This document shows positions 22,246 through 48,701 of a DNA stretch of 64,000 nt, piece after piece. The notes beneath the pieces are model-generated. The model searched no databases, was not told the origin of the DNA, and worked only from the letters and a program-made list of their open reading frames with translations. A program made the translations under genes and the position numbers. Numbering within the stretch: the stretch's first letter is position 1; each line of letters starts with the position of its first letter. The stretch is from Klebsiella phage K64-1: sequence record AB897757.1; one strand, given 5' to 3'.

Positions 22246-23814
22246 ATGAACAAATCAATCACACCGGACGTGACTCAATATAGTATTAAAAATCAAGAAT
22301 ATCTTCTTTCTCAAATTTTTACAAATCCAGATTTGTATGTACGTTGTAAAAATATCTTAAAACCTGAATATTTTGATAAGATATTTCAAAACAGTATTCA
22401 GTACGTTCATGAATACAGTAATAAGTACAACGGTGGTTTCCCAACTCTACTTGATATTGAAGTTAAAAGTGGATTTCAATACACTGAAATTAAAGTATCT
22501 GAATTAAACAAACAAGCTGTATTAGATCATTGCGGTGAATTTTGTCGTCACAAAGCACTAGCACTTGCAGTTGAAAAGGGAATGGAATTAGTTCAACAAA
22601 AAAAATATGGTGGTATTGAAGAATTAATCCGTGAAGCCATGCTTGTTACTGTACAAAATGAATTAGGTCTTGATGTATATGAAAACCCAGAGGAAACAAT
22701 CCAGTCACTTAAAGATATGCAGGGTTCGATGCGAAGTGGATGGGATACTCTTGATTTCAAATTATTTGGTGGTTTTGGTAAACAAGAACTTGAAATATTC
22801 GCGGCGGCAAGTGGTGGTGGTAAATCGGTTGTACTACAAAATATCGCAGTTAACTTTTCCAAAATGGGATTAAATGGTGCATATATTTCACTGGAACTTG
22901 CAGAAGAACTGGTTGCGGTTCGTATCTATGGTATGATGACTGATACTAAACTGAGTACAATCAAAAGCGATGCAAGTAACATTGGTATGAAAATCGCCAT
23001 TGATGGTAAACAGTCTGGTTCACTGAGGATTAAGCGTTTACCAGAATCGATTACAACTTCTAATGATATCGAAAGTTACATTCGAGAATTACAAATAAAA
23101 ACTGGGATTAAACTGGATTATATTTGTGTGGACTACTTAGACTTGATGACCTCGGAACGTAGTACTGATGCATCAAACGTGTTTGTTAAGGATAAATTTG
23201 TATCAGAAGAATTACGTGCCTTAGCACATACTATGGACATGACTGTATTCACAGCCGCACAGTTTAACCGTAGTGGTATTAATGAAGAAAAGAAAAGTCA
23301 GGCACAAATTGCAGGTGGCATGTCAAAGATTTATACTGCTGATAACGTAATTTATATCGAAACTAATAAAGATAAAGGTGAACTTTGGTTTGACTTCCAG
23401 AAAACTCGTAACAGTTCTGCTGTAGGTTCAAAACTTCGCATGTCTTATAATATGGACTCTCTTCGAGTACTGGATCATGCACAAACAATTCAGGAGCTTG
23501 AGTGTAATAAGAGTGGTTTTAAGCTCACACAGAGCACTATGGGTGTTGGTGGAGGCTCAGTGACACAACCACCTTCGACTATGACAAGTCTTCGCCACAG
23601 CCTTTACAATGCAAATATGGGGCTATCTCAACCAGTTGAAGTTGAACACAATGTAGACAACACAAGTGTACTAAATACTGACAATGAGGATGTTTTAAAT
23701 TCACCAGCGTATGAAAATGAAACAATTGAAGAATTTGAAATTGTAGAATCGGTGCAGACAAAACTTTCTCCAAGTAAAATTAGTAATATGAGAGACTTTT
23801 TAGGGAAGAGATAG
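22246..23814 (+). CDS. 41: replicative DnaB-like helicase (gp41-like)
   Basis: Walker A AAASGGGKSVVLQN and a RecA-like core (DYLDLM, TAAQFNRSG). Confidence 0.8.
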   Translation: MNKSITPDVTQYSIKNQEYLLSQIFTNPDLYVRCKNILKPEYFDKIFQNSIQYVHEYSNKYNGGFPTLLDIEVKSGFQYTEIKVSELNKQAVLDHCGEFCRHKALALAVEKGMELVQQKKYGGIEELIREAMLVTVQNELGLDVYENPEETIQSLKDMQGSMRSGWDTLDFKLFGGFGKQELEIFAAASGGGKSVVLQNIAVNFSKMGLNGAYISLELAEELVAVRIYGMMTDTKLSTIKSDASNIGMKIAIDGKQSGSLRIKRLPESITTSNDIESYIRELQIKTGIKLDYICVDYLDLMTSERSTDASNVFVKDKFVSEELRALAHTMDMTVFTAAQFNRSGINEEKKSQAQIAGGMSKIYTADNVIYIETNKDKGELWFDFQKTRNSSAVGSKLRMSYNMDSLRVLDHAQTIQELECNKSGFKLTQSTMGVGGGSVTQPPSTMTSLRHSLYNANMGLSQPVEVEHNVDNTSVLNTDNEDVLNSPAYENETIEEFEIVESVQTKLSPSKISNMRDFLGKR

Positions 23815-23825
23815 GAATAATGTGA

Positions 23826-24095
23826 ATGGACGCAAAAAACCAAAATCTATTAGATAGTATTTTTGAACACACATCCGAAAAAAGATCAATACAGCATTTT
23901 AGTAATAGAGCAGATCACGCGATTAACTCTGTTATTAATTTACTTGAATATATAGAAACTGAATTTGATGCAGACGACGCTGAAGATTTAAAAAAGCGTT
24001 TATTTCTTAGTATAAAGAATAGAGACTATAAAAAGTTTCAAAAAGGATTGGAGAATATTGCACTCGATGAATCCAGAAAGAATAAGGATAATTGA
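23826..24095 (+). CDS. hypothetical protein
   Basis: 89-aa ORF. Confidence 0.45.
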   Translation: MDAKNQNLLDSIFEHTSEKRSIQHFSNRADHAINSVINLLEYIETEFDADDAEDLKKRLFLSIKNRDYKKFQKGLENIALDESRKNKDN

Positions 24096-24582
24096 TGATT
24101 TTTGACAAGTCCAAATTTGAAAAATTTACTAAACCACGTAAACTGAAATATATTCAGGAAAATGATTTTTTGGGATTTAATACAAAAAATGCAGTGATGG
24201 TATTATATTGTATAGAAAATGATTTAACAGATGTTGTATATGCACCTTGTGGATCTGAATGTAAAAATAACATCAACTAAACCATCCAAGTACTGTAATA
24301 GTTATAAAAACAGAAAGGAAGAAACATGTCCTCTGTGTCATAATTATTATAAAAATACAATGCAAGAGAAGTACAAAGAAAGTTGTACCAAAAAAATATG
24401 GTGTAGAAAATCCAATGAAAAGTACTGAAATTAGAGAAAACTATAAACAGAATTTCATTGAAAAAACAGGATATACAAATCCATTGTGCACAGGTACCGA
24501 TTCAAGAACAAAAAGAGATCAAACTTGTATTGTATTATTTGGTTCGGTATCTTCACAAAAACGACCCATCACTTTTGCCTAA
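24092..24582 (+). pseudogene. frameshifted, truncated relic of the 27097/46992 endonuclease-like family (N-terminal part only)
   Basis: Three successive frames carry segments that match in order the N-terminus of ORF 46992. ENDLTDVVYAPCGSEC matches LNDLDTIPIAACGNVC. SYKNRKEETCPLCH matches SYKMNKEETCPECH, with about 85% nucleotide identity to 47262-47290. KKYGVENPMKSTEIRENYKQNFIEKTGYTNPL is a NUMOD-like repeat. At least 2 frameshifts are present and no nuclease domain follows. Confidence 0.65.
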
Positions 24583-24805
24583 TTTAACAGAAGATGATAT
24601 AACTATCGGTTTGTATAAGTTCAATAAAATATACACTACTGGGAATTTGAAATATGAAAAAAACTATAAATGAAAATGCCAGTTCTGGAAGTACATCATC
24701 TGGATCTATTGCTTCCAGTACCAACGGATTACATTATCCGCTAGTCACCAGACTTCCCAAGACTAATTTCTTTGGAATGAAAGAATATAAAAAGAAGGAT
24801 AAAAA

Positions 24806-25198
24806 ATGAAACCATATACTTTCTATACAATCAATACAGTTGTTGATATTGGTGATGGTAGTACTCCTACTATATCAAATGGAAAGTTCACTGGTGCTAT
24901 GAATTTATCAAGGCTGGTAGAAACAATTACTATACATGATTATCCTATGATGGTAAGTATTGTAAAAACTGAAGTAGATTTATCAAAAGATAGTAATGCT
25001 GAATTTTACAATTTACCATCTGTGTGGGGAAAATGTGTTGTGAGTACTTTTAAGTTCGCATTAACAAATGATGTGACATTGAAAATTAATGGTGTTCCAT
25101 TGGTATTGCCTACTGTAGTTAATAATACCAGAATTACTAAATTCCAGACAATGAATACTAACAGGAATATCAGTATTATTAAGCAGACTTTTTATTAA
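24806..25198 (+). CDS. hypothetical protein
   Basis: 130-aa ORF with RBS AAGAAGGA. Confidence 0.5.
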   Translation: MKPYTFYTINTVVDIGDGSTPTISNGKFTGAMNLSRLVETITIHDYPMMVSIVKTEVDLSKDSNAEFYNLPSVWGKCVVSTFKFALTNDVTLKINGVPLVLPTVVNNTRITKFQTMNTNRNISIIKQTFY

Positions 25199-25238
25199 AA
25201 TAAATAATTGAAAGATCTTTTTTACAAAAGGAATTAAA

Positions 25239-26210
25239 ATGGATATTCAACAAACATCACAAGAATTACAAAAATTTGCTGATTCTCAGGGAATGAATAT
25301 TGATGTTTCTACTGTACTCGATAATATGGATGCTGGTGATTTCGTGGAATTGAATTCGGCTATCGACTCTAACAATAATCAAGAAATTTTTAAAATTCTT
25401 CAAAAATATAAAGCACGTATGAGTGAAAGTTTTGAATATTTTAGTCCAACATATGTACTTAAATACGTAACCGAAAATTCAAAACTAAAAGAAATTGATA
25501 ATTATAGTATTAAAGAATTAAAAGAAGCGTATTCAAAATTCAGTACATATGGTGATATTTCAGAATTTAGTACTCAGGAATTAAAAGCATTAGTGTATGA
25601 AGATATAACACAGAATGCTACACAGCTTAATGCGTTAAAAACTAGTAATATTGCACAACAAAATCTACAACAGCAACAACAACAAATTAATCCACAGACA
25701 CAGGCTAAAGTTAAACAAGCAGAATTACAAAAAGGTACGGGTAATATGAAAGTATCTGTTCCTGGTCAACAATCTGGTACAGATGAAATTGAACCCCTTG
25801 TTGGTATTGATGTTGGACAAACACCACAACAGACATTGGTTGTTACTAAAAGTGGTTCTAAACCAAATCAGGTTAATATATTTGGTCTAGATGACGTCAC
25901 CCCAGTTCAGGAATCAAGAAAACTAATGGATGACATTGATAAGATCTGCACAGAAGAAAAATCTGTACAAGAGATTAATGCAGAAACTAAAAATGTTGCT
26001 CCGCCAGCACCTGAACAAAGTGGAACGCCATCGCCAGTTACTTATACTGCTCCTGGTATGGGTGAGTTTATTCATTCAGTACAGGACGTTCCATTTGAAG
26101 ATGATTTCAGTGGAGAAGAAAGCCCATTAGGAAATTCTAAATTTGAACAGAATGATGAAATTGTTAACGATATAATTGATTTATGTAATCGAATGGATAA
26201 TAGAAAATGA
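25239..26210 (+). CDS. hypothetical protein with Gln-rich low-complexity tract
   Basis: 323 aa. Contains NLQQQQQQINPQTQ. Confidence 0.5.
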   Translation: MDIQQTSQELQKFADSQGMNIDVSTVLDNMDAGDFVELNSAIDSNNNQEIFKILQKYKARMSESFEYFSPTYVLKYVTENSKLKEIDNYSIKELKEAYSKFSTYGDISEFSTQELKALVYEDITQNATQLNALKTSNIAQQNLQQQQQQINPQTQAKVKQAELQKGTGNMKVSVPGQQSGTDEIEPLVGIDVGQTPQQTLVVTKSGSKPNQVNIFGLDDVTPVQESRKLMDDIDKICTEEKSVQEINAETKNVAPPAPEQSGTPSPVTYTAPGMGEFIHSVQDVPFEDDFSGEESPLGNSKFEQNDEIVNDIIDLCNRMDNRK

Positions 26211-26401
26211 GATCTATAAAAACCGACAATGGTTATAGTATTATCCTTAGTAATGAAGAGTACTCATTATATAGAAAAATTAAAGCTAGAAAAAAAATTC
26301 ACGAAGAATCTCTTCCTGAATATTATCAAGAACTCGCCAATAAACTGGTATCAAGGGGTGTTCTTGATAAAACTGAAGATAATATATATACAGTAAAATA
26401 A
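26207..26401 (+). CDS. hypothetical small protein
   Basis: 64-aa ORF with ATGA overlap to the upstream stop. Confidence 0.4.
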   Translation: MRSIKTDNGYSIILSNEEYSLYRKIKARKKIHEESLPEYYQELANKLVSRGVLDKTEDNIYTVK

Positions 26402-26425
26402 TACAATGTAATTAAAGGAAGTTAT

Positions 26426-27079
26426 ATGAGTTATTATTCTGATGATTATGAACAAAATAAGAAGGCTAAATCAGAAATTTCTGATTTACTTACTGACTTG
26501 TATGATATTGGTTTTTATGATAAAAATGATATCCCACCACCGGTAAGCACGGCACCTGATTATGGTTATGATTATATTACAGAAGGTGTACAAGGTACTT
26601 ATTCACTGGATGAAAATGGTATTCCAGTTAATGTAGTACAACCCACTATCCCAGAACAGTACTATACTGAACCTGTTATTCAAAAACCAAAAAATACTAA
26701 AAAATGGGATTTAGTTGAAGATCACTATCCAGGTACTAAAAGTACTAAAGTCTATAGTATTAAATGTAATTCAAATGACCAAATTATTATGAATAACATT
26801 TTAATGCACGAAGCCGCTTTAACTTTAGTAAATCTTTTAAATGAAGGTAGAATGTTAACTGATCCAAAAATTCTTGGTATAATCAGCAGTGGTATTCAAT
26901 TTACTTCAGTTATGAATGAGGTCATAAAAGTATCAAAAGAACGTCTTGTGGTACTAAATGAAGCTCGTTATGATGATGCAAAAGAATTGGATGTAAAAAT
27001 TGCCGAAAAGAAAAATGAAGCATATAAACTGAAAAAACGTGTACTGGATTTTCTAAAAACTGAAGGCTACATTAAATAG
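26426..27079 (+). CDS. hypothetical protein
   Basis: 217-aa ORF with RBS AAAGGAAG. Confidence 0.5.
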   Translation: MSYYSDDYEQNKKAKSEISDLLTDLYDIGFYDKNDIPPPVSTAPDYGYDYITEGVQGTYSLDENGIPVNVVQPTIPEQYYTEPVIQKPKNTKKWDLVEDHYPGTKSTKVYSIKCNSNDQIIMNNILMHEAALTLVNLLNEGRMLTDPKILGIISSGIQFTSVMNEVIKVSKERLVVLNEARYDDAKELDVKIAEKKNEAYKLKKRVLDFLKTEGYIK

Positions 27080-27096
27080 TACTTCAAGGGAATGAA

Positions 27097-28830
27097 ATGA
27101 AAAAATATCTGAAAAATTTAGATACAGAAACAGAAAATCTATTTAATGAAATTCGTTCATTACTAAGTAACAAAAATAGTAAATCATGGCATACCTCAAT
27201 AAATGCTTCTGGAAGGGAGCATTTAAAAAACGCGGTACTCAGAGTCTATCCAAGTAGTGATTTTTTATTATCAGAAGCATTAAAACTGATTATCAATCAA
27301 GAAGAACCACCGTATGCAGTATGTGGTAGAAAATGTAAGTATTTTAATGGTCAGTATGATAGATATTGTTCATTGGGTGTCAAACCCAATAAAAACACTT
27401 ATTGTGAGAAGTGCAATAAACACTGGCGAGAAAAGAAAAACAAATCCACAAAAGAAAACTGTCTAAATCAGTACAATGTTGAACACCCTTTTCAGCGAAA
27501 TGATGTGAAAACAAAAGTACATGAAACTAAAATACGAAAATACGGTACTAATTATAATAAAATAATTTCAAACAAATCATTCAGTACTTATTATAATAAA
27601 ACTGGATATTCATGTCCATTGAGTAATCCAGATATACAACAAAAAATTAAAGAAACTAATATTAAAAATTATGGATATGAAAATCCCGGTTCATCTCCAT
27701 TAATTGTACAAAAAAGAAAAAATACCCAGAAGAAATTATATGGTCATGAACATTCTATGCAGAATGGTGATATAAAACTAAAGGTATTGATTAAATCTGC
27801 CACACAGAGAATGGATAGTATAAATTCAAAACTTGAATTTACTAATTTTATTCCTTTGTTTGATATTAGTGATTTAATTGGTTTGGATACATATAACAAA
27901 ATGCCATACTGGTGTAATACACATGGTTTATTTTATTCATGTAGTAATTATAAAATTATATGTAATGAATGCACTCCCGTTCATATAAGCACACAACACA
28001 AAGAGATATTAAATTTTATAGAAAATCTTGGTATTGAATGTGTAACGAATACACGCTCTGTTTTAAAAAGTACTATGGAATTGGATATTTTTATACCTGA
28101 CTTGAATGTTGCAATAGAAATTAATGGTATGTACTGGCATAGTACTGAATACAAAGAACGACTGTATCATCAAAACAAAATGTTGGAATGTAAAGAACAT
28201 GGCATTCACTTAATACAGATATGGGAAGATGAATGGAATACCAAACAAGATTTGGTTAAATTTCGTTTGATGAATGTATTAAAATGCTCCAGTACTATAT
28301 ATGCAAGAAAATGTAAAATAAAAGAAATCAATAAAAAAGAATGTGATAATTTTATTAATACATACCATATCCAAGGTTCTAGTTCATCATCTATTAGAAT
28401 TGGTTTATATTACGAAAATGAATTATATGCAGTTATGACATTTGGAAAATCCAGATTTGATAAAACTGTTCAGTATGAATTGATACGATATTGTTCAAAA
28501 AGTACAGTCGTTGGCGGTGCATCTAAATTATTAAAGTACTTTGAGAAGAAATACAAACCAGTGTCGTTGATTTCTTATGCAGATGCGTGTTGGAGTACTG
28601 GTGATTTATATATTAAACTTGGTTTTACATATAATGGATTAACTGAACCTGGTTATTTTTATTACAAATCAAGTACTGGTAGAATTTCAAGGCATCAATG
28701 TCAAAAGAAAAAACTAGTCAATCAGGGATATGATGAAAATTTATCAGAATATCAAATATGTACCACTGTACTTAAATATAACAAAATATTTGATTGTGGT
28801 AATTTTAAATTCACTAAATATTACATATAA
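27097..28830 (+). CDS. modular endonuclease-like protein: Zn finger + NUMOD3-like repeats + Zn ribbon + Vsr-like PD-(D/E)XK nuclease + GNAT-like C-domain
   Basis: Tandem ~28-aa repeats (..KTKVHETKIRKYG.., ..QQKIKETNIKNYG.., ..KRKNTQKKLYG..). WCNTHGLFYSCSNYKIICNEC ribbon. LDIFIPDLNVAIEINGMYWHS...KEHGIHLIQIWEDEW fits Vsr PDIVFPKYKTCIFVHGCFWHHH...GWRVLIVWEC. C-domain TVVGGASKLLKYF + ISYADACWSTGDLYIKLGFTYNG fits GNAT motifs A and B. Paralogue of 46992..48701. Confidence 0.6.
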   Translation: MKKYLKNLDTETENLFNEIRSLLSNKNSKSWHTSINASGREHLKNAVLRVYPSSDFLLSEALKLIINQEEPPYAVCGRKCKYFNGQYDRYCSLGVKPNKNTYCEKCNKHWREKKNKSTKENCLNQYNVEHPFQRNDVKTKVHETKIRKYGTNYNKIISNKSFSTYYNKTGYSCPLSNPDIQQKIKETNIKNYGYENPGSSPLIVQKRKNTQKKLYGHEHSMQNGDIKLKVLIKSATQRMDSINSKLEFTNFIPLFDISDLIGLDTYNKMPYWCNTHGLFYSCSNYKIICNECTPVHISTQHKEILNFIENLGIECVTNTRSVLKSTMELDIFIPDLNVAIEINGMYWHSTEYKERLYHQNKMLECKEHGIHLIQIWEDEWNTKQDLVKFRLMNVLKCSSTIYARKCKIKEINKKECDNFINTYHIQGSSSSSIRIGLYYENELYAVMTFGKSRFDKTVQYELIRYCSKSTVVGGASKLLKYFEKKYKPVSLISYADACWSTGDLYIKLGFTYNGLTEPGYFYYKSSTGRISRHQCQKKKLVNQGYDENLSEYQICTTVLKYNKIFDCGNFKFTKYYI

Positions 28831-28849
28831 CTTATAAGGAATATATAAA

Positions 28850-29473
28850 ATGTCTGACATTAAAAAAATCATGGAAGCTGAAAATCGTGTAGAAGCACTG
28901 AAGTTCATGCAGATTAATGAAAGTAATATTGAAAAACTGGAAGTGGTTCTCGCAATCAAATCTGGTATTGCCGATAAACTACAACGTGCTTCTGAGCAGT
29001 TGATGAACTACAGCGTTGACGTTCTCGGTCCAATTGTTGATCGTATTAAAGCAGAAGAAGGTATTGAAGTGGCCGAAGAATTTCAGTCCAGAGTTAAAAA
29101 CATCCTTCAACATGCAGCAGATGTAGTTATGGATGCTAAAGACCAGATCACTAACGAAACTCTTAAACTTACTGGTGATGTAGCTGATAATCCAGATGTG
29201 GCTGATATCGGTATTGATGATGATCTAACCGTTGATGAGGAAACCCCAACTTTTGATATGGAATCTGATGCTTCCTTTGATGATATTGAAGAACCTGTAC
29301 CGGAAGATCGTGCAATGAAAGAATCTGTACAATATACCCAAGTTGGTATCAAAATGGAAAGTACTAAAGGTACTATTGGTACAAAATATTTCAGTACTCA
29401 TAAAGAAGCTGAAAAATGGCTCAAAGAAAATGAATCTAAAGTCAAAAAAGTACTTGGGTTCGAGAAAAAATAA
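28850..29473 (+). CDS. hypothetical acidic protein
   Basis: 207-aa ORF with an Asp/Glu-rich centre. Confidence 0.5.
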   Translation: MSDIKKIMEAENRVEALKFMQINESNIEKLEVVLAIKSGIADKLQRASEQLMNYSVDVLGPIVDRIKAEEGIEVAEEFQSRVKNILQHAADVVMDAKDQITNETLKLTGDVADNPDVADIGIDDDLTVDEETPTFDMESDASFDDIEEPVPEDRAMKESVQYTQVGIKMESTKGTIGTKYFSTHKEAEKWLKENESKVKKVLGFEKK

Positions 29474-29481
29474 GGTTAATT

Positions 29482-29832
29482 ATGAAATTTCGTGATATTG
29501 TAAAAATCACAGAAGATGCACCACCAAAAGATATTCGCAATATGATCACCAGTATTGCATTATCACTAGTTGCATCTGGTAGGGAAGAGGTTGGTATTCA
29601 GTCATTGGTTAATGAAATTAAGAAAAGGACTGGTATTGATGTTCCTTATAATGTGATGATGGATATTTTAAATTCGTTGCCATTTGTTCAGGATGCAAAT
29701 TCTGATAGAGTACAATTTTCAGGAACTGATACCAGTACTGACTTTAAGCAACCTAATTCAGAAGAAAGTTCTGAACAAAAAGTACAAGATATGGCTGGTA
29801 AAGCAGCCACCGACAGTATGAAATCACTATAA
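29482..29832 (+). CDS. hypothetical protein
   Basis: 116-aa ORF. Confidence 0.5.
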   Translation: MKFRDIVKITEDAPPKDIRNMITSIALSLVASGREEVGIQSLVNEIKKRTGIDVPYNVMMDILNSLPFVQDANSDRVQFSGTDTSTDFKQPNSEESSEQKVQDMAGKAATDSMKSL

Positions 29833-29837
29833 AATTT

Positions 29838-29867
29838 TTGAACAAAAAGACAAAAATAAGCTATAAT
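29838..29867 (+). promoter_or_regulatory. sigma70-type early promoter (TTTTTGAACAAAAA-family)
   Basis: TTGAAC at 29838-29843, 18-bp spacer, TATAAT at 29862-29867. Only about 12 nt lie between the predicted transcription start and the ATG at 29885. Confidence 0.6.
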
Positions 29868-29884
29868 TATGGAGTAACAAGGGA

Positions 29885-30592
29885 ATGTTTGTTCCACCTA
29901 TTATTAGCAGATATTCTTATGTTGATTATAAAAGAATTGAAGGCGGCTCTCAGGGTCGCCTTTATTCTACCCCAACCGGAAATCTGCCATCGGTAACTAC
30001 AATTCTAAGTGCCACATCCAATGATGAAGGATTGAAAAAATGGCGTGAATTTGTGGGAGAAGAAAAAGCCAATGCTATCACACTGGAAGCAACGACAATT
30101 GGTACCTTTATGCATGAAAATTTAGAAAATAGATTAAATTCTAAGCCAGATCATGAAGGTGGTATGCCAGTACGTGTATTAGCAAGAAAAATGGCTGATA
30201 AAATTCAAGAAGAAGCGTGGCCTAAAATTAATGAAGTATGGGGTCAGGAAGTACCACTGTACTATGAAGGTCTATGGGCTGGAACAACAGATTTGGTTGG
30301 AATTCATGACGGAATTCCAACCATCATGGATTACAAAAATTCTAGAAAAAAGAAAACATGGAATCATATTGAAAATTACCGTTTACAAATTGCCGCATAT
30401 GCGTTGGCTCATAACTATATGTATGGAACTGATATACGACGTGGTGTAATATTTGTTTGTGTAAGAGAAGATCCTCAAAATTTACAATATCAGGAATTTA
30501 TAATTGAAGGTGATGATTTTGATGAAGCCGTACAAATGTGGATTTCTAGAGTAGAGCAATATTATATAATGAATGGGCAAATTATAAATTAA
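29885..30592 (+). CDS. PD-(D/E)XK nuclease, RecB/Cas4/lambda-Exo-like
   Basis: GTTDLVGIHDG...IMDYKNSRK (D...DxK) followed by QIAAYALAHNYMYG (the QhxxY motif of RecB-family nucleases). Confidence 0.55.
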   Translation: MFVPPIISRYSYVDYKRIEGGSQGRLYSTPTGNLPSVTTILSATSNDEGLKKWREFVGEEKANAITLEATTIGTFMHENLENRLNSKPDHEGGMPVRVLARKMADKIQEEAWPKINEVWGQEVPLYYEGLWAGTTDLVGIHDGIPTIMDYKNSRKKKTWNHIENYRLQIAAYALAHNYMYGTDIRRGVIFVCVREDPQNLQYQEFIIEGDDFDEAVQMWISRVEQYYIMNGQIIN

Positions 30593-38942: not shown

Positions 38943-39459
38943 AATTATTTTATGTACAGATAAAAATTACGGTATAGGATATAAAAATACAATTCCGTGG
39001 CATAGCAGTGAAGATTTTAAACACTTCAAAGAAGAAACTTTGAATAAAACTGTTGTGATGGGATATAATACATGGAAATCCCTACCAAATAAACCACTTT
39101 CAAAAAGACTTAATATTGTGCTTGTTAATCGTGCATATGAAGATCGTGATATGTATGATCAAACCAACGTCTTATTTCTGGATGAAGATAATTTAGAAAG
39201 TATTATTCGTAATAACCCTGATTGTGTTATTATTGGCGGTGCATCAATTTATAAAATGAGTTTGCCTCATGTAGATGAAATCGTACATAGTATAATTCCC
39301 AAAGAATTTGTATGTGATTGCTTTTTTGACTTCACTATTGATAAGCGTGTGATTATTGAACGTGAAAGTTGTAAAACACTTGATGATGGTATTATGGTGG
39401 ATTATTATAAATGCAAACCAAATCCAGATTATGATGATTACGTGGATTCATATCAATGA
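38935..39459 (+). CDS. frd: dihydrofolate reductase
   Basis: IILCTDKNYGIGYKNTIPWH...VVMGYNTWKSLP...IIGGASIY. The ATG at 38935 is preferred over the track's upstream extension. Confidence 0.8.
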   Translation: MAKIILCTDKNYGIGYKNTIPWHSSEDFKHFKEETLNKTVVMGYNTWKSLPNKPLSKRLNIVLVNRAYEDRDMYDQTNVLFLDEDNLESIIRNNPDCVIIGGASIYKMSLPHVDEIVHSIIPKEFVCDCFFDFTIDKRVIIERESCKTLDDGIMVDYYKCKPNPDYDDYVDSYQ

Positions 39460-40040
39460 AGATAAAGGATATGGAAGTTCATTTATGTGAGCGTGGTGAA
39501 ATTTCTTCATTCATTGAAGAACATCATTATTCTAAAAATATTAATGGTTGTATAACTGATTATTGTTTCAAATTAACATATAATAATGAAATAATTGGTG
39601 CTATGTTTTATGGAAAAATGGCTATGGCTAACCAATACAAAAGATTTGTTGATAGAGAAGAAGATTGTATTGAGTTGCGTAGATTATGCTGTATTGATGA
39701 TACACCAAAAAACACTGAAAGTTTTTTTATTGGTAAAACACTAAAATGGCTTAAAAAGAACACACAAATAAAGGTGGTTGTTAGTTATGCAGATCAAGAA
39801 TATGGTCATAGTGGTATAATTTATAAAGCATCTAATTTTGAATATAATGGATTTAAAAAAGGTGCTAAAGTTATAATCCACAATGGCAAACAATATCATG
39901 ATAAAGCTATTAGAACTAAGTATAAAGGGAAGTTAAAACCATTTGCACAAAGATTAAAAGATGCATTAGACAGTGGTGATGCTTATTATAAACAAACTGC
40001 TGGAAAACATACTTACACTTACAAGTTAAGGAAAACTTAG
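39456..40040 (+). CDS. free-standing GNAT-like domain protein, homologous to the C-terminal domain of ORFs 27097 and 46992
   Basis: EISSFIEEHHYSKNINGC...LTYNNEIIGAMFYGK...LKWLKKNT...VVSYADQEYGHSGIIYKASNFEYNG aligns with YARKC..E..FI..YH.QG...GLYY.NEL...TFGK...SKLLKYF...SYAD..WS.G.LY.K.GF.Y.G in the large endonuclease-like ORFs. Confidence 0.5.
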   Translation: MKIKDMEVHLCERGEISSFIEEHHYSKNINGCITDYCFKLTYNNEIIGAMFYGKMAMANQYKRFVDREEDCIELRRLCCIDDTPKNTESFFIGKTLKWLKKNTQIKVVVSYADQEYGHSGIIYKASNFEYNGFKKGAKVIIHNGKQYHDKAIRTKYKGKLKPFAQRLKDALDSGDAYYKQTAGKHTYTYKLRKT

Positions 40041-42300: not shown

Positions 42301-42810
42301 ATGAAAGAAATTATTGCCAATGACAAAATTATTGCTAAAACTGTTCGTTTAGTAATGGACGGTTCTAGTGAAGTAATGGCAATTGCTAAAGCACGTCAGG
42401 AAGCCGATAATTTGGGTCTTGATATTGTGGTTGTAAATAATGGGGATGTACCTGTAGTTAAAATTGTAGACCTTAACAAATACAAATACGAACTCAAACA
42501 ATCAGAAAAAGCATCTCTGAAAAAACAGCGTCAGAATGTTATCAGTACTAAGGAGATTCAATTCACTTTCGGTACTCAGGATAATGATTTGATCGTTAAG
42601 GCTAAATCTGCTACTAAGTTTTTATCAGAAGGTAAAAATGTATTAATTGTTATGAAAACCGTTGGTCGTGGAAATACACCTCAATTAGTTAAACAAAATA
42701 TTGATGCGATGAATGCTTTTGTGAAACGTCTTGGTGAAGTAGACTTTATCCAAAAAGTCGAATATCACGGCAAAAAAGTAACATGCACTGTCAAAAGTAC
42801 TGTAAAATAA
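42301..42810 (+). CDS. infC: translation initiation factor IF3 homologue
   Basis: Collinear with bacterial IF3 along its whole length. Phage KIIAKTVRLVMDGS..LGLDIVVV..PVVKIVDLNKYKYELKQSEKA.KKQRQ...KEIQFTFGTQDNDLIVKAKSATKFLSEGKNVLIVMKTVGRGNT matches E. coli [93 protein letters not shown]. Confidence 0.8.
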   Translation: MKEIIANDKIIAKTVRLVMDGSSEVMAIAKARQEADNLGLDIVVVNNGDVPVVKIVDLNKYKYELKQSEKASLKKQRQNVISTKEIQFTFGTQDNDLIVKAKSATKFLSEGKNVLIVMKTVGRGNTPQLVKQNIDAMNAFVKRLGEVDFIQKVEYHGKKVTCTVKSTVK

Positions 42811-43365
<555 letters not shown>

Positions 43366-44954: not shown

Positions 44955-44984
44955 TTGAACAAAAACATTAAAATCAACTATAAT
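44955..44984 (+). promoter_or_regulatory. sigma70-type early promoter (TTTTTGAACAAAAA-family)
   Basis: TTGAAC at 44955-44960, 18-bp spacer, TATAAT at 44979-44984. Confidence 0.6.
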
Positions 44985-45020
44985 TTATACGTTATAACAA
45001 AGATACAAAAGGATTTAATA

Positions 45021-46988
45021 ATGGCTAAGAAACAAGAAAGTTCAGTACTTCAAGAACATGATGTACAACGCCTTAATGATTATCAACATGCTCGTCTACG
45101 CAGTGAAATGTACTTAGGATCAAGAAGTATCCATGAAAGCCAAGTTCTCATTTTTGGGGAAAATTCATACCAAGTTACTAACATGGAATGGGTGCCTGCA
45201 TTACTTACTGCATGTCGTGAATTATGGGATAATTCACTTGATGAGTTTAAAAAAGCCGGTACTAAAGAACCGGTACTTAAAATTGAATTTGATGAAAATG
45301 AATTAACATTCAGTTGTATTGATAATGGACGCGGTATTCCGATTGATTATGTTCCAGATTTCAATACTAATCTCTGTACTATGGTAATGACTGAAACAAA
45401 GACTGGTAGAAACTTTGATGATTCAAAGCGTGATGAAACTATTGGTCAAAATGGTCTGGGTGGATCTGTGGCAATGCTTGTAAGTTCTAAAGCTGAAATG
45501 GAAATACATCGAAAAGGTCGTCCATATAAAACATCAGCGTCCAATGATTCATATGATGGATTTTATAAATTCAGTCAAAATTTTAAAGAAGGAACTGAAT
45601 TTATTCCAGAAATTCAAATTTCTGAACCAGTAATTAGAAAAATTAGTTCTGATAAAACAGGAACAAGTATTAGACTAACATTTAGTCCTTCTGTATTTCC
45701 TAACAGAAAATTACCAATTGAACTGTTGTATAGCATTCTTAAAGAAATGGCATCAGCAAATCCAACATATAAAATCTTTTTGAATAATAAACGAATTAAT
45801 GTTAAACCAACTCCAGAAAAAACATTATTTAATGCATCTAAACTAATGCAACTAAATGTTAACGATGAATCTTTTAACTTTAACAGTACTTTTTATATTA
45901 TTCCAAATGCTGTTAATAATATGAATACTAATTTTCATATGCATGGTTTAGTTAATAATGCACCAGCGTTCGATGGTGGTACTCATCTAGATACATTCAA
46001 GAAACATTTTTCACTTGGTATTGCTAATGCTCTTGAAAAAGAAGCGAAGAAGCGTAAGATGAAGCCAAACCGTTCAGATATTGAAGAAGGGCTTCTGATT
46101 TATAATGTAACTACAATGAAAGCACCTTCATTCAATTCACAAATTAAATCCAAATTAACTAACGAAAATGTAGTTAAACCAATTCAACAAGCAATGAGTA
46201 CTGAATGGTTCGAAGAATTAGTTAAAAAGAATAAAGATTGGGTTGATGAAATATTTGAACGTTGTGCTGCACGTACAAATAAAAAAGATGCAGAAGAAGA
46301 TCGTCGTCTTGCTAAAAAACTTCTTAAAGGTAAAGTTGCCAAACTACTTGATTCAGTTGGTACTGATCGTTCCAAATGTATTCTAATGTTGGCAGAAGGT
46401 GATTCTGCTATTTCTAACATGGCTAGTGCTCGTGATCCTAATATTCATGGTATCTTACCTTTACGTGGTAAAATTATGAATGTGAGTGGTGAAGAGAAAA
46501 CAAAAGAATTAATGGATTCTGATGCATTACATGATATCATGGCTAGTATTAACCTAGTTCCAGGTGTGAAGGCAAATCGTGATGAATTGAGTTTTGGTAA
46601 ATTATACATAGCAACGGATGAAGATACTGACGGCCTTAATATAGCCGCATTGATTTGTAATTTTCTTTATAAATTCTGGCCTGAACTATTTCAGGATGCC
46701 GATAATCCATTTGTGTATGTATTCAAAACTCCATTTATTATTCTGGAGAAAGGGAAAGAATCAAAATACTTCTATGGTTATAATGTTTCTGAATACAATC
46801 CTGAAGATTGGAAGGGTTGGAAAGCCACACGTGCAAAAGGATTAGGAACATTGGAAAAGAGTAATTTCAGAGACGCATTCACCAATAGTGTAGCGGTTGC
46901 AATTACCGATGATGGTAATTTAGGTGAAACACTGGATTTGATATTCAATAAAAAGAGAGCAGATGATCGTAAAGCATGGATGGCTTAG
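45021..46988 (+). CDS. 39: DNA topoisomerase II large subunit (GyrB-like; T4 gp39+gp60 equivalent, uninterrupted)
   Basis: GHKL ATPase, Toprim (LMLAEGDSA, PLRGKIMNV) and YIATDEDTDGLNI. The ATG at 45021 has an AAAGGA RBS. The track's 44955 start is TTG inside the promoter. Confidence 0.8.
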   Translation: MAKKQESSVLQEHDVQRLNDYQHARLRSEMYLGSRSIHESQVLIFGENSYQVTNMEWVPALLTACRELWDNSLDEFKKAGTKEPVLKIEFDENELTFSCIDNGRGIPIDYVPDFNTNLCTMVMTETKTGRNFDDSKRDETIGQNGLGGSVAMLVSSKAEMEIHRKGRPYKTSASNDSYDGFYKFSQNFKEGTEFIPEIQISEPVIRKISSDKTGTSIRLTFSPSVFPNRKLPIELLYSILKEMASANPTYKIFLNNKRINVKPTPEKTLFNASKLMQLNVNDESFNFNSTFYIIPNAVNNMNTNFHMHGLVNNAPAFDGGTHLDTFKKHFSLGIANALEKEAKKRKMKPNRSDIEEGLLIYNVTTMKAPSFNSQIKSKLTNENVVKPIQQAMSTEWFEELVKKNKDWVDEIFERCAARTNKKDAEEDRRLAKKLLKGKVAKLLDSVGTDRSKCILMLAEGDSAISNMASARDPNIHGILPLRGKIMNVSGEEKTKELMDSDALHDIMASINLVPGVKANRDELSFGKLYIATDEDTDGLNIAALICNFLYKFWPELFQDADNPFVYVFKTPFIILEKGKESKYFYGYNVSEYNPEDWKGWKATRAKGLGTLEKSNFRDAFTNSVAVAITDDGNLGETLDLIFNKKRADDRKAWMA

Positions 46989-46991
46989 GAT

Positions 46992-48701
46992 ATGAAACAT
47001 GATGAAGTAGTTAGTATAATTAAAAAATTTGCCAATGAAGTCAAGTCCAATGGGGAATCAGTACTAAAGCAAATTAAAAAGATGGATAGATATGAAGAAG
47101 TTATTTCATATCTAAAAAGCTATTATGGTGACTATGATATTAAAGTTCTAATTGGTTCAGTACTAAATGATTTAGATACCATTCCCATTGCTGCTTGTGG
47201 GAATGTATGTAGATTTGATGGATTAAAATTGAGGTACGTATGTACCTCATATAAAATGAACAAAGAAGAAACATGTCCTGAGTGTCATATTAAATTAAAA
47301 GAAATAATGAACAACAACAGAATGCAATCTGTGGAAATGAAGTACGGTACTCCATATATATCTAAAGTTCCAGAATTTAGAGAGAAAGCAAAAAATACAA
47401 TGTTTAATGAGTATGGTGTATATAATATTTCTAATTTGGATTCTGTGAAAAAGAAAAAAAGTGATAATTATCACAATAAAAGTTTAGAAGAAAAAGAACG
47501 TATTAAAGAAAAAAATAAGAAAAAAGTAATACAGACATATGGTGTTGATAACGTATCTAAATCTGAAATTGTAAAACAAAAGAAACTTGGTAATAAAAAT
47601 CCATTCAATAATAGTACTTTTAAAATTAAAAATATCATTAATACAACCAAACGAAGATATAATAGCATAACAGACTATTTAAAAACCAATGATAAACCAT
47701 ATACACTAACTTACATGCCATTTGCATATAAAGATGACCATGTATTTCAATGCAAGTGTGGTGAAATTATAAGTTGTAAAATACAATCGTTTGATACAAT
47801 ACGTTGTTATAAATGTTTCCCATTGGAAGTAAGTTCTGGTGAACTTTGGTTGAGACAAGAAATTGAAAATATTATAAGTAATACATCAACAAGTACTGAA
47901 ATGTTATTAAATCAAAGGTATGATTTTATTGATAACAGAGATATTGATATATACTTACCTGAATTGAAAATAGGTTTTGAATTCAATGGTTCGTACTGGC
48001 ATAATGATGAACACAAAGATAAGTACTATCATCAGAAGAAATCGATTTCTGCAAAAAACAATGGTATCAATTTAATACATATCCATGAATCTGATTATAA
48101 TAAAATAAAAGATAAAATTGTAATGAGATTAAAACATGTATTAAACAAAAATGATAAAACAATTTATGCAAGAAAATGTATTGTAAAAGAAGTATCATTT
48201 AAAGAAAGTGAAGTATTTTTGGATGAATATCATTTTCAACAATCATGTGTATCAGGTATAAGAATTGGATTATATTATGATAATGAATTAGTAGCATTGG
48301 CTACGTATGGAAAATCCAGATATGACAAAAAATATGAATATGAATTATTGAGATTCTGTACAAAGTATTCGGTACCGGGTGGATTTAGTAAAATAATGAA
48401 ATACTTTGAGCAAACATACAACCCTAAATCATTGATGACATATGCCGATCTGGACTGGAGTAATGGTAATGTTTATGAAAAAAATGGGTTTGAGTTTGTG
48501 AAATACACCGAACCAAGTTACTTTTACGTGGATAAATATCAAAATAAAATTTCAAGATATGATTGTCGTAAAACTGAATTATTAAAACTATATGATTGGG
48601 CTACCAATGATATGACGGAAACTGAAATCTGTAAAAAATTAAATTACAATAAAATATATTCATCTGGAAATATAGTTTATCGTAAAATATATAACAAATA
48701 A
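46992..48701 (+). CDS. modular endonuclease-like protein (paralogue of 27097..28830) inserted between topoisomerase II subunit genes
   Basis: Zn finger CGNVC...CTSYKMNKEETCPECH. NUMOD-like repeats (MKYGTPYISKVPEFREKAKNTMFNEYGVYN, KVIQTYGVDNVSKSEIVKQKKLG). Ribbon QCKCGEIISCKIQSFDTIRCYKC. Vsr-like IDIYLPELKIGFEFNGSYWHN...NNGINLIHIHESDY. GNAT-like C-domain VPGGFSKIMKYF...MTYADLDWSNGNVYEKNGFEF. Confidence 0.6.
   Translation: MKHDEVVSIIKKFANEVKSNGESVLKQIKKMDRYEEVISYLKSYYGDYDIKVLIGSVLNDLDTIPIAACGNVCRFDGLKLRYVCTSYKMNKEETCPECHIKLKEIMNNNRMQSVEMKYGTPYISKVPEFREKAKNTMFNEYGVYNISNLDSVKKKKSDNYHNKSLEEKERIKEKNKKKVIQTYGVDNVSKSEIVKQKKLGNKNPFNNSTFKIKNIINTTKRRYNSITDYLKTNDKPYTLTYMPFAYKDDHVFQCKCGEIISCKIQSFDTIRCYKCFPLEVSSGELWLRQEIENIISNTSTSTEMLLNQRYDFIDNRDIDIYLPELKIGFEFNGSYWHNDEHKDKYYHQKKSISAKNNGINLIHIHESDYNKIKDKIVMRLKHVLNKNDKTIYARKCIVKEVSFKESEVFLDEYHFQQSCVSGIRIGLYYDNELVALATYGKSRYDKKYEYELLRFCTKYSVPGGFSKIMKYFEQTYNPKSLMTYADLDWSNGNVYEKNGFEFVKYTEPSYFYVDKYQNKISRYDCRKTELLKLYDWATNDMTETEICKKLNYNKIYSSGNIVYRKIYNK

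What the first reader, a model, noticed from the sequence alone, without database searches (positions are those of the whole stretch)
27097..28830. Modular endonuclease-like gene family: NUMOD-like repeats + Zn ribbon + Vsr-like nuclease + GNAT-like domain
ORFs 27097..28830 (577 aa) and 46992..48701 (569 aa) are full-length paralogues with the same five-part architecture. The central domain carries the Vsr/DUF559-type signature (D-I-F/Y-x-P-x-L-x-hh-E-h-N-G-x-Y-W-H ... G-I-x-L-I-x-I-W/H-E). This signature is known from Vsr-like homing endonucleases such as I-Bth0305I. Unlike those, it is followed by a ~200-aa domain with GNAT motif A/B-like segments (VGGASKLLKYF; SYAD..WS.G.LY.K.GF.Y.G). A nuclease fused to an acetyltransferase-like fold is not a described homing-endonuclease architecture. 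It could be a DNA-modifying, selfish or defence/anti-defence module.
Basis: partly seen in the sequence, partly recalled or inferred. Interest (0 to 1): 0.75.

Follow-up and report, generated by a model that had tools for sequence, protein, structure and literature searches.

The report
Hef homing endonucleases with Mom-like domain
The two genes are copies of a known selfish phage gene (the Hef homing endonuclease) in a Klebsiella jumbo phage.

Summary
ORFs 27097-28830 and 46992-48701 are full-length paralogues (36% identity, E 4e-91). Both have the same architecture: N-terminal helices, Zn ribbon, helical repeats, second Zn ribbon, Vsr-like nuclease, GNAT domain.

The window is a RaK2-type Klebsiella jumbo phage, and GenBank already annotates these genes as 'hef' or 'EDxHD homing endonuclease'. 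The nuclease matches I-Bth0305I and Vsr. The C-domain's best solved match is phage Mu Mom. It keeps the Mom-essential H58, R111 and Y159 equivalents in all 145 diverse relatives examined.

Both genes are exact intergenic insertions that are absent from phage 121Q. A third copy is an internally deleted remnant here (24092-24673) but is intact in phage Muenster. That pattern is how mobile homing endonuclease genes behave.

The nuclease-GNAT pair is an obligate unit (143 of 144 representatives) in a very large family (16,341 cluster representatives), and the GNAT half is the better conserved.

The novelty claim fails:
- Taylor 2011 placed Hef in the EDxHD family.
- Iyer 2021 described jumbo-phage Mom domains fused to REase-fold nucleases.
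- One GenBank record already says 'nuclease/acetyltransferase'.

Still open is whether the GNAT domain modifies DNA.

The parts
27097..28830 (+). hef1: full-length Hef-type homing endonuclease gene (577 aa)
   Evidence: ORF. PHROG 3339 'homing endonuclease' E 1.2e-173 over the full length. Annotated hef / EDxHD in RaK2 and Muenster. AF2 model has mean pLDDT 94.4.
27097..27420 (+). hef1 N-terminal helical region (aa 1-70) and first Cys-rich beta-hairpin / Zn-ribbon-like module (aa 71-108; C76, C80, C91, C103, C106)
   Evidence: AF2 secondary structure: H10-66, E79-91. Cys columns are conserved at 89-93% across the family. Metal binding is inferred, not shown.
27421..27834 (+). hef1 helical repeats (aa 109-246), about five units with a K-x-K-x-T-x3-K-Y-G motif; presumed extended DNA-binding module
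   Evidence: Pfam DUF7487 E 9.5e-15, above the cut-off. Six helices 104-246 in the model. No NUMOD hit. Only 25% identical between hef1 and hef2. The DNA-binding role is inferred.
27835..27987 (+). hef1 second Zn-ribbon-like module (aa 247-297; C273, H276, C289, C292)
   Evidence: Strands 268-273 and 277-282. The four ligand columns are conserved at 82-91%.
27988..28281 (+). hef1 Vsr-like (EDxHD) nuclease domain (aa 298-395); E328, D330, E341, N343, H348, H358, K361
28282..28827 (+). hef1 Mom-like GNAT domain (aa 396-577); H424, R464, G473-G474-A475-S476, D496, Y505, R532, K537
27079..28831 (.). hef1 insertion: 1753 bp in place of 18 bp of intergenic DNA in phage 121Q
   Evidence: blastn homology with 121Q ends at 27078 and resumes at 28832. 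121Q genes 26 and 27 are adjacent.
46992..48701 (+). hef2: second full-length paralogue (569 aa), between the topoisomerase II large (gp39-like) and medium (gp52-like) subunit genes
   Evidence: ORF. PHROG 3339 E 1.3e-152. Annotated 'hef-like homing endonuclease' in Muenster.
47832..48146 (+). hef2 nuclease domain (aa 281-385); D317, D319, E330, N332, H337, H347, K350
   Evidence: Pairwise alignment with hef1. All nuclease motif residues are retained.
48147..48698 (+). hef2 Mom-like GNAT domain (aa 386-569); H414, R454, G463, S466, D486, Y495
   Evidence: 50% identical to the hef1 GNAT domain, the best-conserved part of the protein. tblastn against the standalone Mom E 3e-6 to 3e-5. No single-sequence Pfam hit.
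46984..48700 (.). hef2 insertion: 1717 bp in place of a 39-bp spacer that carries a terminator-like hairpin in 121Q
   Evidence: blastn homology with 121Q ends at 46983 and resumes at 48701. In 121Q the two topoisomerase genes are 50 bp apart.
24092..24673 (+). hef3 remnant: decayed third copy, with frameshifts and a roughly 1.04-kb internal deletion
   Evidence: Only short overlapping ORFs are present here. Muenster has an intact 542-aa gene at this site. The window matches Muenster up to 24566 and again from 24557, skipping L001 17516-18558. RaK2 and RCIP0023 share the deletion, and the Asteriusvirus relatives listed at ~56-58% query coverage lack the gene (ph0011 is longer here).
39456..40040 (+). 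Standalone Mom-family gene (194 aa). It is a relative of the Hef C-domain but not part of the hef genes
   Evidence: Pfam Mom E 6.5e-37. PHROG 1384 'Mom-like DNA modification protein' E 5.8e-65. PDB 8bv8 E 1e-10.

Best explanation
These are free-standing homing endonuclease genes of the Hef type, in a RaK2-like Klebsiella jumbo phage.

Each protein has two parts. The first is a fast-evolving N-terminal recognition arm made of helices, two Zn-ribbon-like modules and DUF7487 helical repeats. The second is a conserved two-domain core: a Vsr-like (EDxHD) nuclease joined directly to a Mom-like GNAT domain.

Likely mechanism:
1. The arm positions the core on a site in or beside the conserved neighbouring genes of a phage genome that lacks the gene (inferred).
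2. The nuclease cuts that site. This was shown for Hef of phage U5 by others (recalled from memory) and is inferred here.
3. Recombinational repair from the hef-carrying genome copies the gene into the intergenic gap. The insertion pattern is shown; the process is inferred.

The GNAT domain is not a passive linker. It keeps Mom's active-site His, the Mom-specific Arg, the Tyr and a canonical cofactor-binding loop. It most likely binds DNA and flips or acylates a base at the target. The most coherent role is to mark the carrier genome, so that pre-modified virion DNA is spared while an unmodified co-infecting genome is cut. That is single-chain restriction-modification logic serving homing. This last step is hypothesis only.
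For: Identity:
- 99.8-100% DNA identity to RaK2, Muenster and OU509535, where the genes are annotated hef / EDxHD.
- PHROG 3339 matches the full length at E 1e-173 and 1e-153.

Nuclease:
- Family profile vs I-Bth0305I E 4.8e-7, with the catalytic Asp and His aligned.
- D330, E341, H348 and K361 are at least 95% conserved.
- Taylor 2011 includes Hef-type enzymes in the family.

Mobility:
- hef1 and hef2 are exact intergenic insertions that 121Q and about 30 related phages lack.
- UE-S1 and ph0011 carry a diverged hef at the hef1 site.
- hef3 is intact, internally deleted or absent in otherwise similar phages.
- 1064 copies occur in 421 phage records, up to 12 per Campylobacter phage genome.
- A homologue sits between nrdA and nrdB in T-even phage G8.

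GNAT domain:
- H424, R464 and Y505 (Mom H58, R111, Y159) are conserved in 145 of 145 diverse relatives.
- 26 GNAT positions are at least 95% conserved, against 4 in the nuclease.
- It is the most conserved domain between the paralogues: 50%, against 38% for the nuclease and 17-31% for the N-terminal regions.
- The nuclease lies directly upstream in 143 of 144 representatives.
Against: - No cleavage, homing or modification was measured here, and no target site could be derived from sequence.
- The equivalent of Mom R151 (R151A is inactive in Mom) is Cys in hef1 and Asp in hef2. It is Arg in only 65% of the family.
- The D149 equivalent is Asn in 34% of relatives, including the T-even copy.
- Y59 is never conserved.
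- The S124 equivalence is ambiguous: HHalign pairs it with V472, while the GNAT motif pattern points to S476.
- A trans-acting modifier would also protect a co-infecting genome unless timing or pre-modified virion DNA gives an asymmetry.
- By my recollection of Sandegren et al. 2005 (paper not held), U5 Hef cut both hef-plus and hef-minus DNA in vitro. That fits protection by modification, but it also fits no protection at all.
- The phage carries a separate canonical Mom, so any momylation of RaK2 DNA could not be attributed to Hef.
Confidence: 0.85

Rival explanations
1. Single-chain restriction-modification weapon rather than a homing element. The Mom-like domain modifies adenines across the phage genome, and the fused nuclease degrades unmodified host or competitor-phage DNA. 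This is the prediction of Iyer et al. 2021.
For: - Stated in PMC7824862.
- The nuclease and modifier are obligately fused.
- Catalytic-type residues are conserved in both domains.
Against: - The genes behave as insertions that come and go at single intergenic sites between conserved genes, and they decay in place.
- There are up to 12 diverged copies per genome, each with a different N-terminal arm. That fits many site-specific selfish elements better than one genome-wide defence.
- By my recollection of Sandegren et al. 2005, Hef of U5 cleaves close to its own locus.
- The two readings are not exclusive.
Confidence: 0.2
2. The GNAT domain is catalytically inert. It has been recruited as a DNA clamp, base-flipping reader or dimerisation module that helps the nuclease make a double-strand break, as dimerisation does in I-Bth0305I.
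For: - Mu Mom is a tight dimer and is predicted to flip adenine out of DNA.
- I-Bth0305I needs dimerisation.
- The R151 equivalent is missing in hef1 and hef2, the D149 equivalent is often Asn, and Y59 is never kept.
- R532 and K537 are near-invariant (143 and 142 of 145). They lie in the helical insertion at the position of Mom's DNA-binding insertion.
Against: - The active-site His, the Mom-specific Arg, the Tyr and the G-x-A-S cofactor loop are conserved at 75-100% across 145 diverse sequences. That is unusual for a purely structural domain.
- The Mom dimer residue W48 is not conserved in the HHalign pairing.
Confidence: 0.35
3. The GNAT domain acylates something other than DNA, such as a protein, a tRNA or a small molecule. 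An example would be a host repair or defence factor, inactivated to favour recombinational repair.
For: - The GNAT superfamily has very broad substrate range.
- The canonical G-x-A-S acyl-CoA loop is kept in Hef but not in Mu Mom.
Against: - The only Pfam GNAT-type hit is Mom.
- The Mom-specific Arg, which is not conserved across GNATs (PMC7261163), is invariant.
- The domain is always tethered to DNA-binding and DNA-cutting modules.
Confidence: 0.08

Closest known systems
Hef (homing endonuclease-like function) of T4-related phage U5, and 'Hef-like' genes of Acj9, LIMEstone, Campylobacter CP220/CP81-type and RaK2 phages
   Same: - Same family: PHROG 3339 matches the full length, and GenBank annotates the genes as hef.
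- The same nuclease + GNAT core is found in the T-even phage G8 gene between nrdA and nrdB.
- The genes are free-standing, intergenic and patchily present.
   Different: - The N-terminal arms are very different: 14-27% identity to the G8 and Stupor homologues, and 17-33% between the paralogues.
- hef1 and hef2 have C or D where 65% of the family has the Arg equivalent to Mom R151.
- The U5 protein itself could not be retrieved, because the paper is not held. Its equivalence to G8 gp181 is inferred from gene position.
I-Bth0305I, prototype of the EDxHD (Vsr-like) homing endonuclease family (PDB 3r3p)
   Same: - DNA-binding modules lie N-terminal to the nuclease.
   Different: - I-Bth0305I is intron-encoded, 266 aa, and ends with the nuclease. 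It has no GNAT domain.
- Its arm has NUMOD motifs, whereas Hef has DUF7487 repeats and Zn ribbons.
- The last Asp of EDxHD (D222) aligns with a near-invariant His (H358; His in all 122 family sequences, 133 of 145) in Hef.
Mom of phage Mu (GNAT enzyme that transfers glycine from Gly-tRNA to N6 of adenine in dsDNA; PDB 8bv8)
   Same: - Best solved structural match, and HHalign 98%.
- It shares H58, the Mom-specific R111, D149 and Y159.
- It has a helical insertion before the last strands.
   Different: - About 15-21% identity.
- Hef keeps the canonical G-G-A-S loop that Mom lacks.
- The Y59 and (in hef1 and hef2) R151 equivalents are absent.
- The domain is fused to a nuclease rather than standalone.
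- The phage also encodes a true Mom-family protein at 39456-40040.
Single-chain restriction-modification enzymes such as MmeI (Type IIG/IIL). This comparison comes from general knowledge and was not tested here
   Same: A nuclease, a DNA-modifying domain and a recognition module sit in one polypeptide, so cutting and protection address the same site.
   Different: Those enzymes use a SAM methyltransferase and a PD-(D/E)XK nuclease in cellular defence. Here a GNAT and a Vsr-like nuclease sit in a mobile phage gene. No modification has been demonstrated.

Membership tests
EDxHD (Vsr-like) homing endonucleases | Vsr-like nuclease fold | tested here: met
   [not shown]
EDxHD (Vsr-like) homing endonucleases | Composite E-D-x-H-D active-site residues | tested here: inconclusive
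   D330, N343 and H348 align with D196, N208 and H213. The first Glu is plausibly E303, because position 301 is His in hef1 but Glu in about 80% of relatives. The final Asp (D222) aligns with a near-invariant His (H358; 122 of 122, 133 of 145), so the motif reads E-D-x-H-H if that alignment is right.
EDxHD (Vsr-like) homing endonucleases | Behaves as a mobile gene: present or absent at a fixed site between conserved genes | tested here: met
   Empty sites in 121Q for hef1 and hef2, with base-level junctions. hef3 is found intact, deleted or absent.
EDxHD (Vsr-like) homing endonucleases | Site-specific cleavage of the gene-less allele, and homing | not testable with these tools
   This needs biochemistry and mixed infections.
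Hef / Hef-like family | Full-length similarity to annotated Hef proteins, including the nuclease + C-terminal domain core | tested here: met
   PHROG 3339 E 1e-173 and 1e-153 over the full length. tblastn hits 'Hef-like' genes of Acj9, Los1, N2 and fHyAci03 over residues ~300-572 (N2 over 142-572). G8 gp181 is 39-40% identical in both core domains.
Mom family (Pfam PF25680; GNAT superfamily) | GNAT fold, closest to Mom | tested here: met
   [not shown]
Mom family (Pfam PF25680; GNAT superfamily) | Score above the Pfam gathering cut-off (27.1 bits) | tested here: inconclusive
   The isolated hef1 domain scores 27.6 bits, which only just passes. Full-length hef1 scores 23.4 bits, which fails. 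hef2 gives no hit. A profile-profile comparison gives 98% probability, E 1.6e-13.
Mom family (Pfam PF25680; GNAT superfamily) | Residues essential in Mu Mom: H58, R111, S124, D149, R151, Y159 | tested here: inconclusive
   H424, R464 and Y505 are conserved in 145 of 145 relatives. D496 is present in hef1 and hef2 (61% D, 34% N in the family). The R151 equivalent is C in hef1 and D in hef2 (65% R in the family). The S124 equivalent is ambiguous, V472 or S476.
Mom family (Pfam PF25680; GNAT superfamily) | Helical (HTH-like) insertion before the last strands, required for activity | tested here: inconclusive
   The model has helices 532-535, 537-542 and 551-558 between strands 528-530 and 562-565. 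R532 and K537 there are near-invariant. No residue-level superposition on Mom 175-209 was available.
Mom family (Pfam PF25680; GNAT superfamily) | Transfers glycine from Gly-tRNA to N6-adenine of dsDNA | not testable with these tools
   This needs enzyme assays and nucleoside LC-MS.
   No NUMOD family scored at E<=1 in Pfam. The repeats hit DUF7487 at E 9.5e-15. The functional analogy, an extended DNA-binding arm, remains plausible.

The most novel reading that the evidence does not exclude
The Hef GNAT domain may be an active DNA-base acyl- or aminoacyl-transferase that writes a site-specific mark at the enzyme's own target. It may use acyl-CoA rather than charged tRNA, since it keeps the canonical G-x-A-S loop that Mu Mom lacks. 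If so, pre-modified virion DNA of the carrier phage would be immune while an unmodified co-infecting genome is cut. That would make Hef a homing element whose direction is set by an epigenetic mark rather than by target-site sequence differences. It would also reveal a new, very widespread DNA modification, given the 16,341 protein cluster representatives.
Probability: 0.25. Interest if true: 0.75.

Novelty: already known. Interest (0 to 1): 0.38.

Why it matters
The genes themselves are ordinary. They are annotated Hef homing endonucleases in a sequenced phage, and the nuclease-Mom fusion is already in the literature.

The useful result is that two separate literatures describe the same protein: 'Hef is a homing endonuclease' and 'Mom domains fused to nucleases are restriction-modification-like'. 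Full-text searches for papers that connect them found none.

The untested GNAT half is the better-conserved half of a very large family. It is always paired with the nuclease, and it keeps the residues that were shown in 2020-2026 to be essential in Mu Mom.

With the Mom mechanism and structure now solved, a direct assay is available. It can test whether a homing endonuclease family carries its own DNA-marking activity.

Tried and rejected
- Global MAFFT alignment of the filled and empty sites misplaced the gaps. I replaced it with local blastn.
- A first MAFFT --auto run timed out.
- Sandegren et al. 2005 (PMC1275590) and Iyer et al. 2009 (PMC2995806) are not held. Statements about U5 Hef biochemistry therefore rest on my memory of the abstract and on papers that cite it.
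- The supplements of Iyer 2021 are not held. I could not confirm that RaK2 Hef is among the fusions they list.
- Full-text searches returned nothing for Mom + GNAT + Vsr + fused, or for Hef-like + homing endonuclease + acetyltransferase.
- Promoter and terminator scans around both genes gave no more sites than shuffled sequence.
- NCBIfam gave only sub-threshold noise.
- The family profile did not reach Mom in the PDB sequence search at E<=1. The link needed a profile-profile comparison and a structure comparison.
- Rejected: that the C-domain is a standard homing-endonuclease DNA-binding domain.
- Rejected: that the similarity of the two ORFs is chance.
- Rejected: that the Hef GNAT depends on the standalone Mom. 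Their distributions across phages barely overlap.
Full report
**What is there.** They align over 529 residues at 36% identity, E 4e-91. The standalone ORF 39456..40040 also exists.

The window is a RaK2-type Klebsiella jumbo phage (Alcyoneusvirus). Positions 26000-30000 are 100% identical to OU509535.1 and 99.8% identical to RaK2 and Muenster. In those records the genes are already annotated 'hef: homing endonuclease', 'homing endonuclease EDxHD' and 'hef-like homing endonuclease'. Both proteins match PHROG 3339 ('homing endonuclease') over their full length, at E 1.2e-173 and 1.3e-152.

**Architecture.** An AlphaFold2 model of hef1, built on 83 homologues, has mean pLDDT 94.4. It resolves six parts:
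- an N-terminal helical region (residues 10-66);
- a Cys-rich beta-hairpin module (about 71-108);
- six helices that carry about five sequence repeats (104-246), which hit Pfam DUF7487 at E 9.5e-15 and hit no NUMOD model;
- a second CxxH...CxxC module (about 247-297);
- an alpha/beta nuclease domain (298-395);
- a GNAT-type domain (396-577).

**The nuclease.**
- A profile of the family hits I-Bth0305I (PDB 3r3p) at E 4.8e-7. Hef D330 aligns to the mutated D196, N343 to N208 and H348 to the mutated H213.
- D330, E341, H348 and K361 are at least 95% conserved in 145 diverse relatives. hef2 keeps all of them.
- One departure: the last Asp of the EDxHD motif (D222) aligns with a His (H358) that is His in all 122 close homologues and in 133 of 145 diverse ones.
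- Taylor et al. 2011 already listed 'bacteriophage Hef type homing endonucleases' as members of this Vsr-like family (PMC3239194).

**The C-domain.**
- The only Pfam GNAT-type hit is Mom (PF25680). The isolated hef1 domain scores 27.6 bits against a cut-off of 27.1. The full-length protein scores 23.4 bits. hef2 gives no hit.
- I built two profiles. One used 122 Hef C-domains. The other used phage Mu Mom, the window's standalone Mom and 120 of its homologues. hhalign gave 98.0% probability, E 1.6e-13, pairing hef1 404-532 with Mom 38-184.
- Foldseek of the whole model against the PDB puts the Mu Mom crystal structure 8bv8 first (E 2.3e-6), followed by generic acetyltransferases.

**Mom's essential residues in Hef.** Karambelkar et al. 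2020 and Silva et al. 2026 identified the residues that matter in Mom: H58, Y59, R111, S124, D149, R151 and Y159. R111 is specific to Mom homologues rather than to GNATs in general. The table gives their equivalents in 145 Hef-type sequences drawn from clusters at no more than 50% identity.

| Mom residue | hef1 equivalent | Conservation in the family |
|---|---|---|
| H58 | H424 | 145/145 |
| R111 | R464 | 145/145 |
| Y159 | Y505 | 145/145 |
| D149 | D496 | D 61%, N 34% |
| R151 | C498 (D in hef2) | R 65% |
| Y59 | I425 | always Ile/Leu-type, never Tyr |

- The S124 equivalence is ambiguous. hhalign pairs it with V472. The canonical GNAT pattern G-x-G/A-S/T at the start of helix 3 points to S476 (S 75%, G 20%).
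- Hef keeps the classical G473-G474-A475-S476 cofactor loop. Mu Mom (RNSESRA) and the window's standalone Mom lack it.
- The model places a helical insertion (532-558) before the last two strands. R532 and K537 in it are near-invariant. This is the position of the HTH-like insertion that Mom needs for activity.

**How general is the fusion?**
- A search of 1.84 billion cluster representatives with the hef1 C-domain alone found 16,341 at E<=1e-3 and 12,580 at E<=1e-10.
- In 143 of the 144 newly retrieved representatives among the 150 best hits, the EDxHD nuclease lies directly upstream. The exception is a 171-aa protein, probably a fragment. Four proteins carry two nuclease-GNAT units in tandem.
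- The GNAT half is the more constrained. It has 26 positions at least 95% conserved, against 4 in the nuclease.
- Between hef1 and hef2 the identities are 50% for the GNAT domain, 38% for the nuclease and 17-31% for the N-terminal modules.
- In the phage collection the core (residues about 298-574) occurs at 1064 places in 421 records. Campylobacter phages carry 10-12 copies each. It is also found in T-even-like, Acinetobacter, Dickeya and Vibrio phages, Lak megaphages and PBS1.
- Acinetobacter phage Stupor's copy is annotated 'putative nuclease/acetyltransferase protein'.
- A 530-aa homologue lies between nrdA and nrdB in Tequatrovirus G8. By my recollection, this is the position Sandegren et al. 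2005 reported for hef in phage U5.
- Standalone Mom homologues have a largely different phage distribution (Vibrio ICP1, Listeria, Enterococcus). The Hef GNAT domain therefore does not depend on a separate Mom.

**Mobility.** Related Asteriusvirus phages such as 121Q share the flanking genes at 70-78% identity but lack both genes.
- At the hef2 site, homology stops at window 46983 and resumes at 48701. So 1717 bp replace a 39-bp spacer between the topoisomerase II large and medium subunit genes. In 121Q that spacer holds a terminator-like hairpin.
- At the hef1 site, homology stops at 27078 and resumes at 28832. So 1753 bp replace 18 bp.
- UE-S1 and ph0011 have a diverged hef (45-46% identity) at the hef1 site.
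- A third copy is intact in Muenster (542 aa), OU509535.1, KP13-7, W12-3 and phiKp_21.
- In this window, as in RaK2 and RCIP0023, that third copy is a frameshifted remnant (24092-24673) with a roughly 1.04-kb internal deletion.
- The Asteriusvirus relatives listed at 56-58% query coverage lack the third copy altogether; ph0011 instead spans a longer stretch at this site.

Empty site, intact gene and decaying gene are the three stages expected of a homing endonuclease gene.

**How it most likely works.**
- Shown here: the domain identities, the conserved catalytic-type residues, the obligate fusion and the insertion polymorphism.
- Shown by others: site-specific cleavage by I-Bth0305I. Homing-endonuclease activity of U5 Hef also belongs here, but I cite it from memory because the paper is not held.
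- Inferred: the variable N-terminal arm selects a site near the insertion point. The nuclease cuts a genome that lacks the gene. Repair from the carrier genome then copies the gene in.
- Hypothesis: the GNAT domain binds DNA and flips or acylates a base at the target.

Iyer et al. 2021 predicted that such fusions are restriction-modification-like. A reading that fits both that view and the mobility data is self-marking. Virion DNA of the carrier would be pre-modified and spared, and an unmodified co-infecting genome would be cut.

Against an active enzyme in these two copies in particular, both lack the Arg equivalent to Mom R151. The rival view, an inert DNA clamp or dimerisation domain, cannot be excluded.

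**Novelty.** The entity is already known and annotated, and the fusion has been noted in print. I found no paper that links the 'Hef homing endonuclease' literature to the 'Mom-nuclease fusion' literature. No test of the GNAT domain's activity appears to exist. The open question is real and is now tractable with the Mom assays of 2026, but the finding itself is a correct re-discovery, not a new kind of system.

Noticed in passing
window 24092-24673: A decayed third hef copy, with frameshifts and a roughly 1.04-kb internal deletion. About 10 bp at the deletion junction (24557-24566) align to both sides of the deletion. The same allele is in RaK2 and RCIP0023, while Muenster, OU509535.1, KP13-7, W12-3 and phiKp_21 have the intact 542-aa gene.
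   Followed up: yes
window 23500-25300 compared with 26000-30000: The window is 100% identical to OU509535.1 around hef1, yet it carries the RaK2-type deletion allele at hef3, whereas OU509535.1 has the intact gene. Alleles are therefore shuffled among phages that are more than 99% identical.
   Followed up: partly
window 39456-40040: A standalone Mom-family gene (Pfam E 6.5e-37) directly after the dihydrofolate reductase gene, with a 4-nt overlap. Its equivalent of the essential Mom R151 is Glu. Close relatives (65-68% identity) occur in Vibrio ICP1-type and Staphylococcus phages.
   Followed up: partly
L003 1785-1823 (phage 121Q), corresponding to window 46984-48700: The empty gp39-gp52 spacer in 121Q carries a GC-rich hairpin followed by a T run (GGGGAACATGGTGTTCCCCTTTT). 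The hef2 insertion removed it, and the hef2 start codon sits 3 nt after the gp39 stop, with AGGA overlapping that stop.
   Followed up: partly
metagenomic proteins P0241, P0242, P0245, P0328: These 829-1039 aa proteins carry two Hef-type GNAT domains. In P0241, P0242 and P0245 each is preceded by a nuclease hit (the second in P0245 is weak, E 0.14); P0328 has only one nuclease hit.
   Followed up: no
hef family alignment, hef1 position 358: The residue that aligns with the last Asp of the EDxHD motif (I-Bth0305I D222, Vsr D97) is a near-invariant His in Hef proteins (122 of 122; 133 of 145). Either the alignment is shifted here or the active site differs.
   Followed up: partly
window about 42302-42811 (Muenster L001 36303-36812): Muenster annotates a phage-encoded translation initiation factor IF-3 homologue and, next to it, a Clp protease adaptor-like protein.
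   Followed up: no
window 44955-46988: The mechanical ORF for the topoisomerase II large subunit starts at a TTG 22 codons upstream of an ATG (MAKKQ...). That ATG matches the Muenster annotation and is the likelier start.
   Followed up: no
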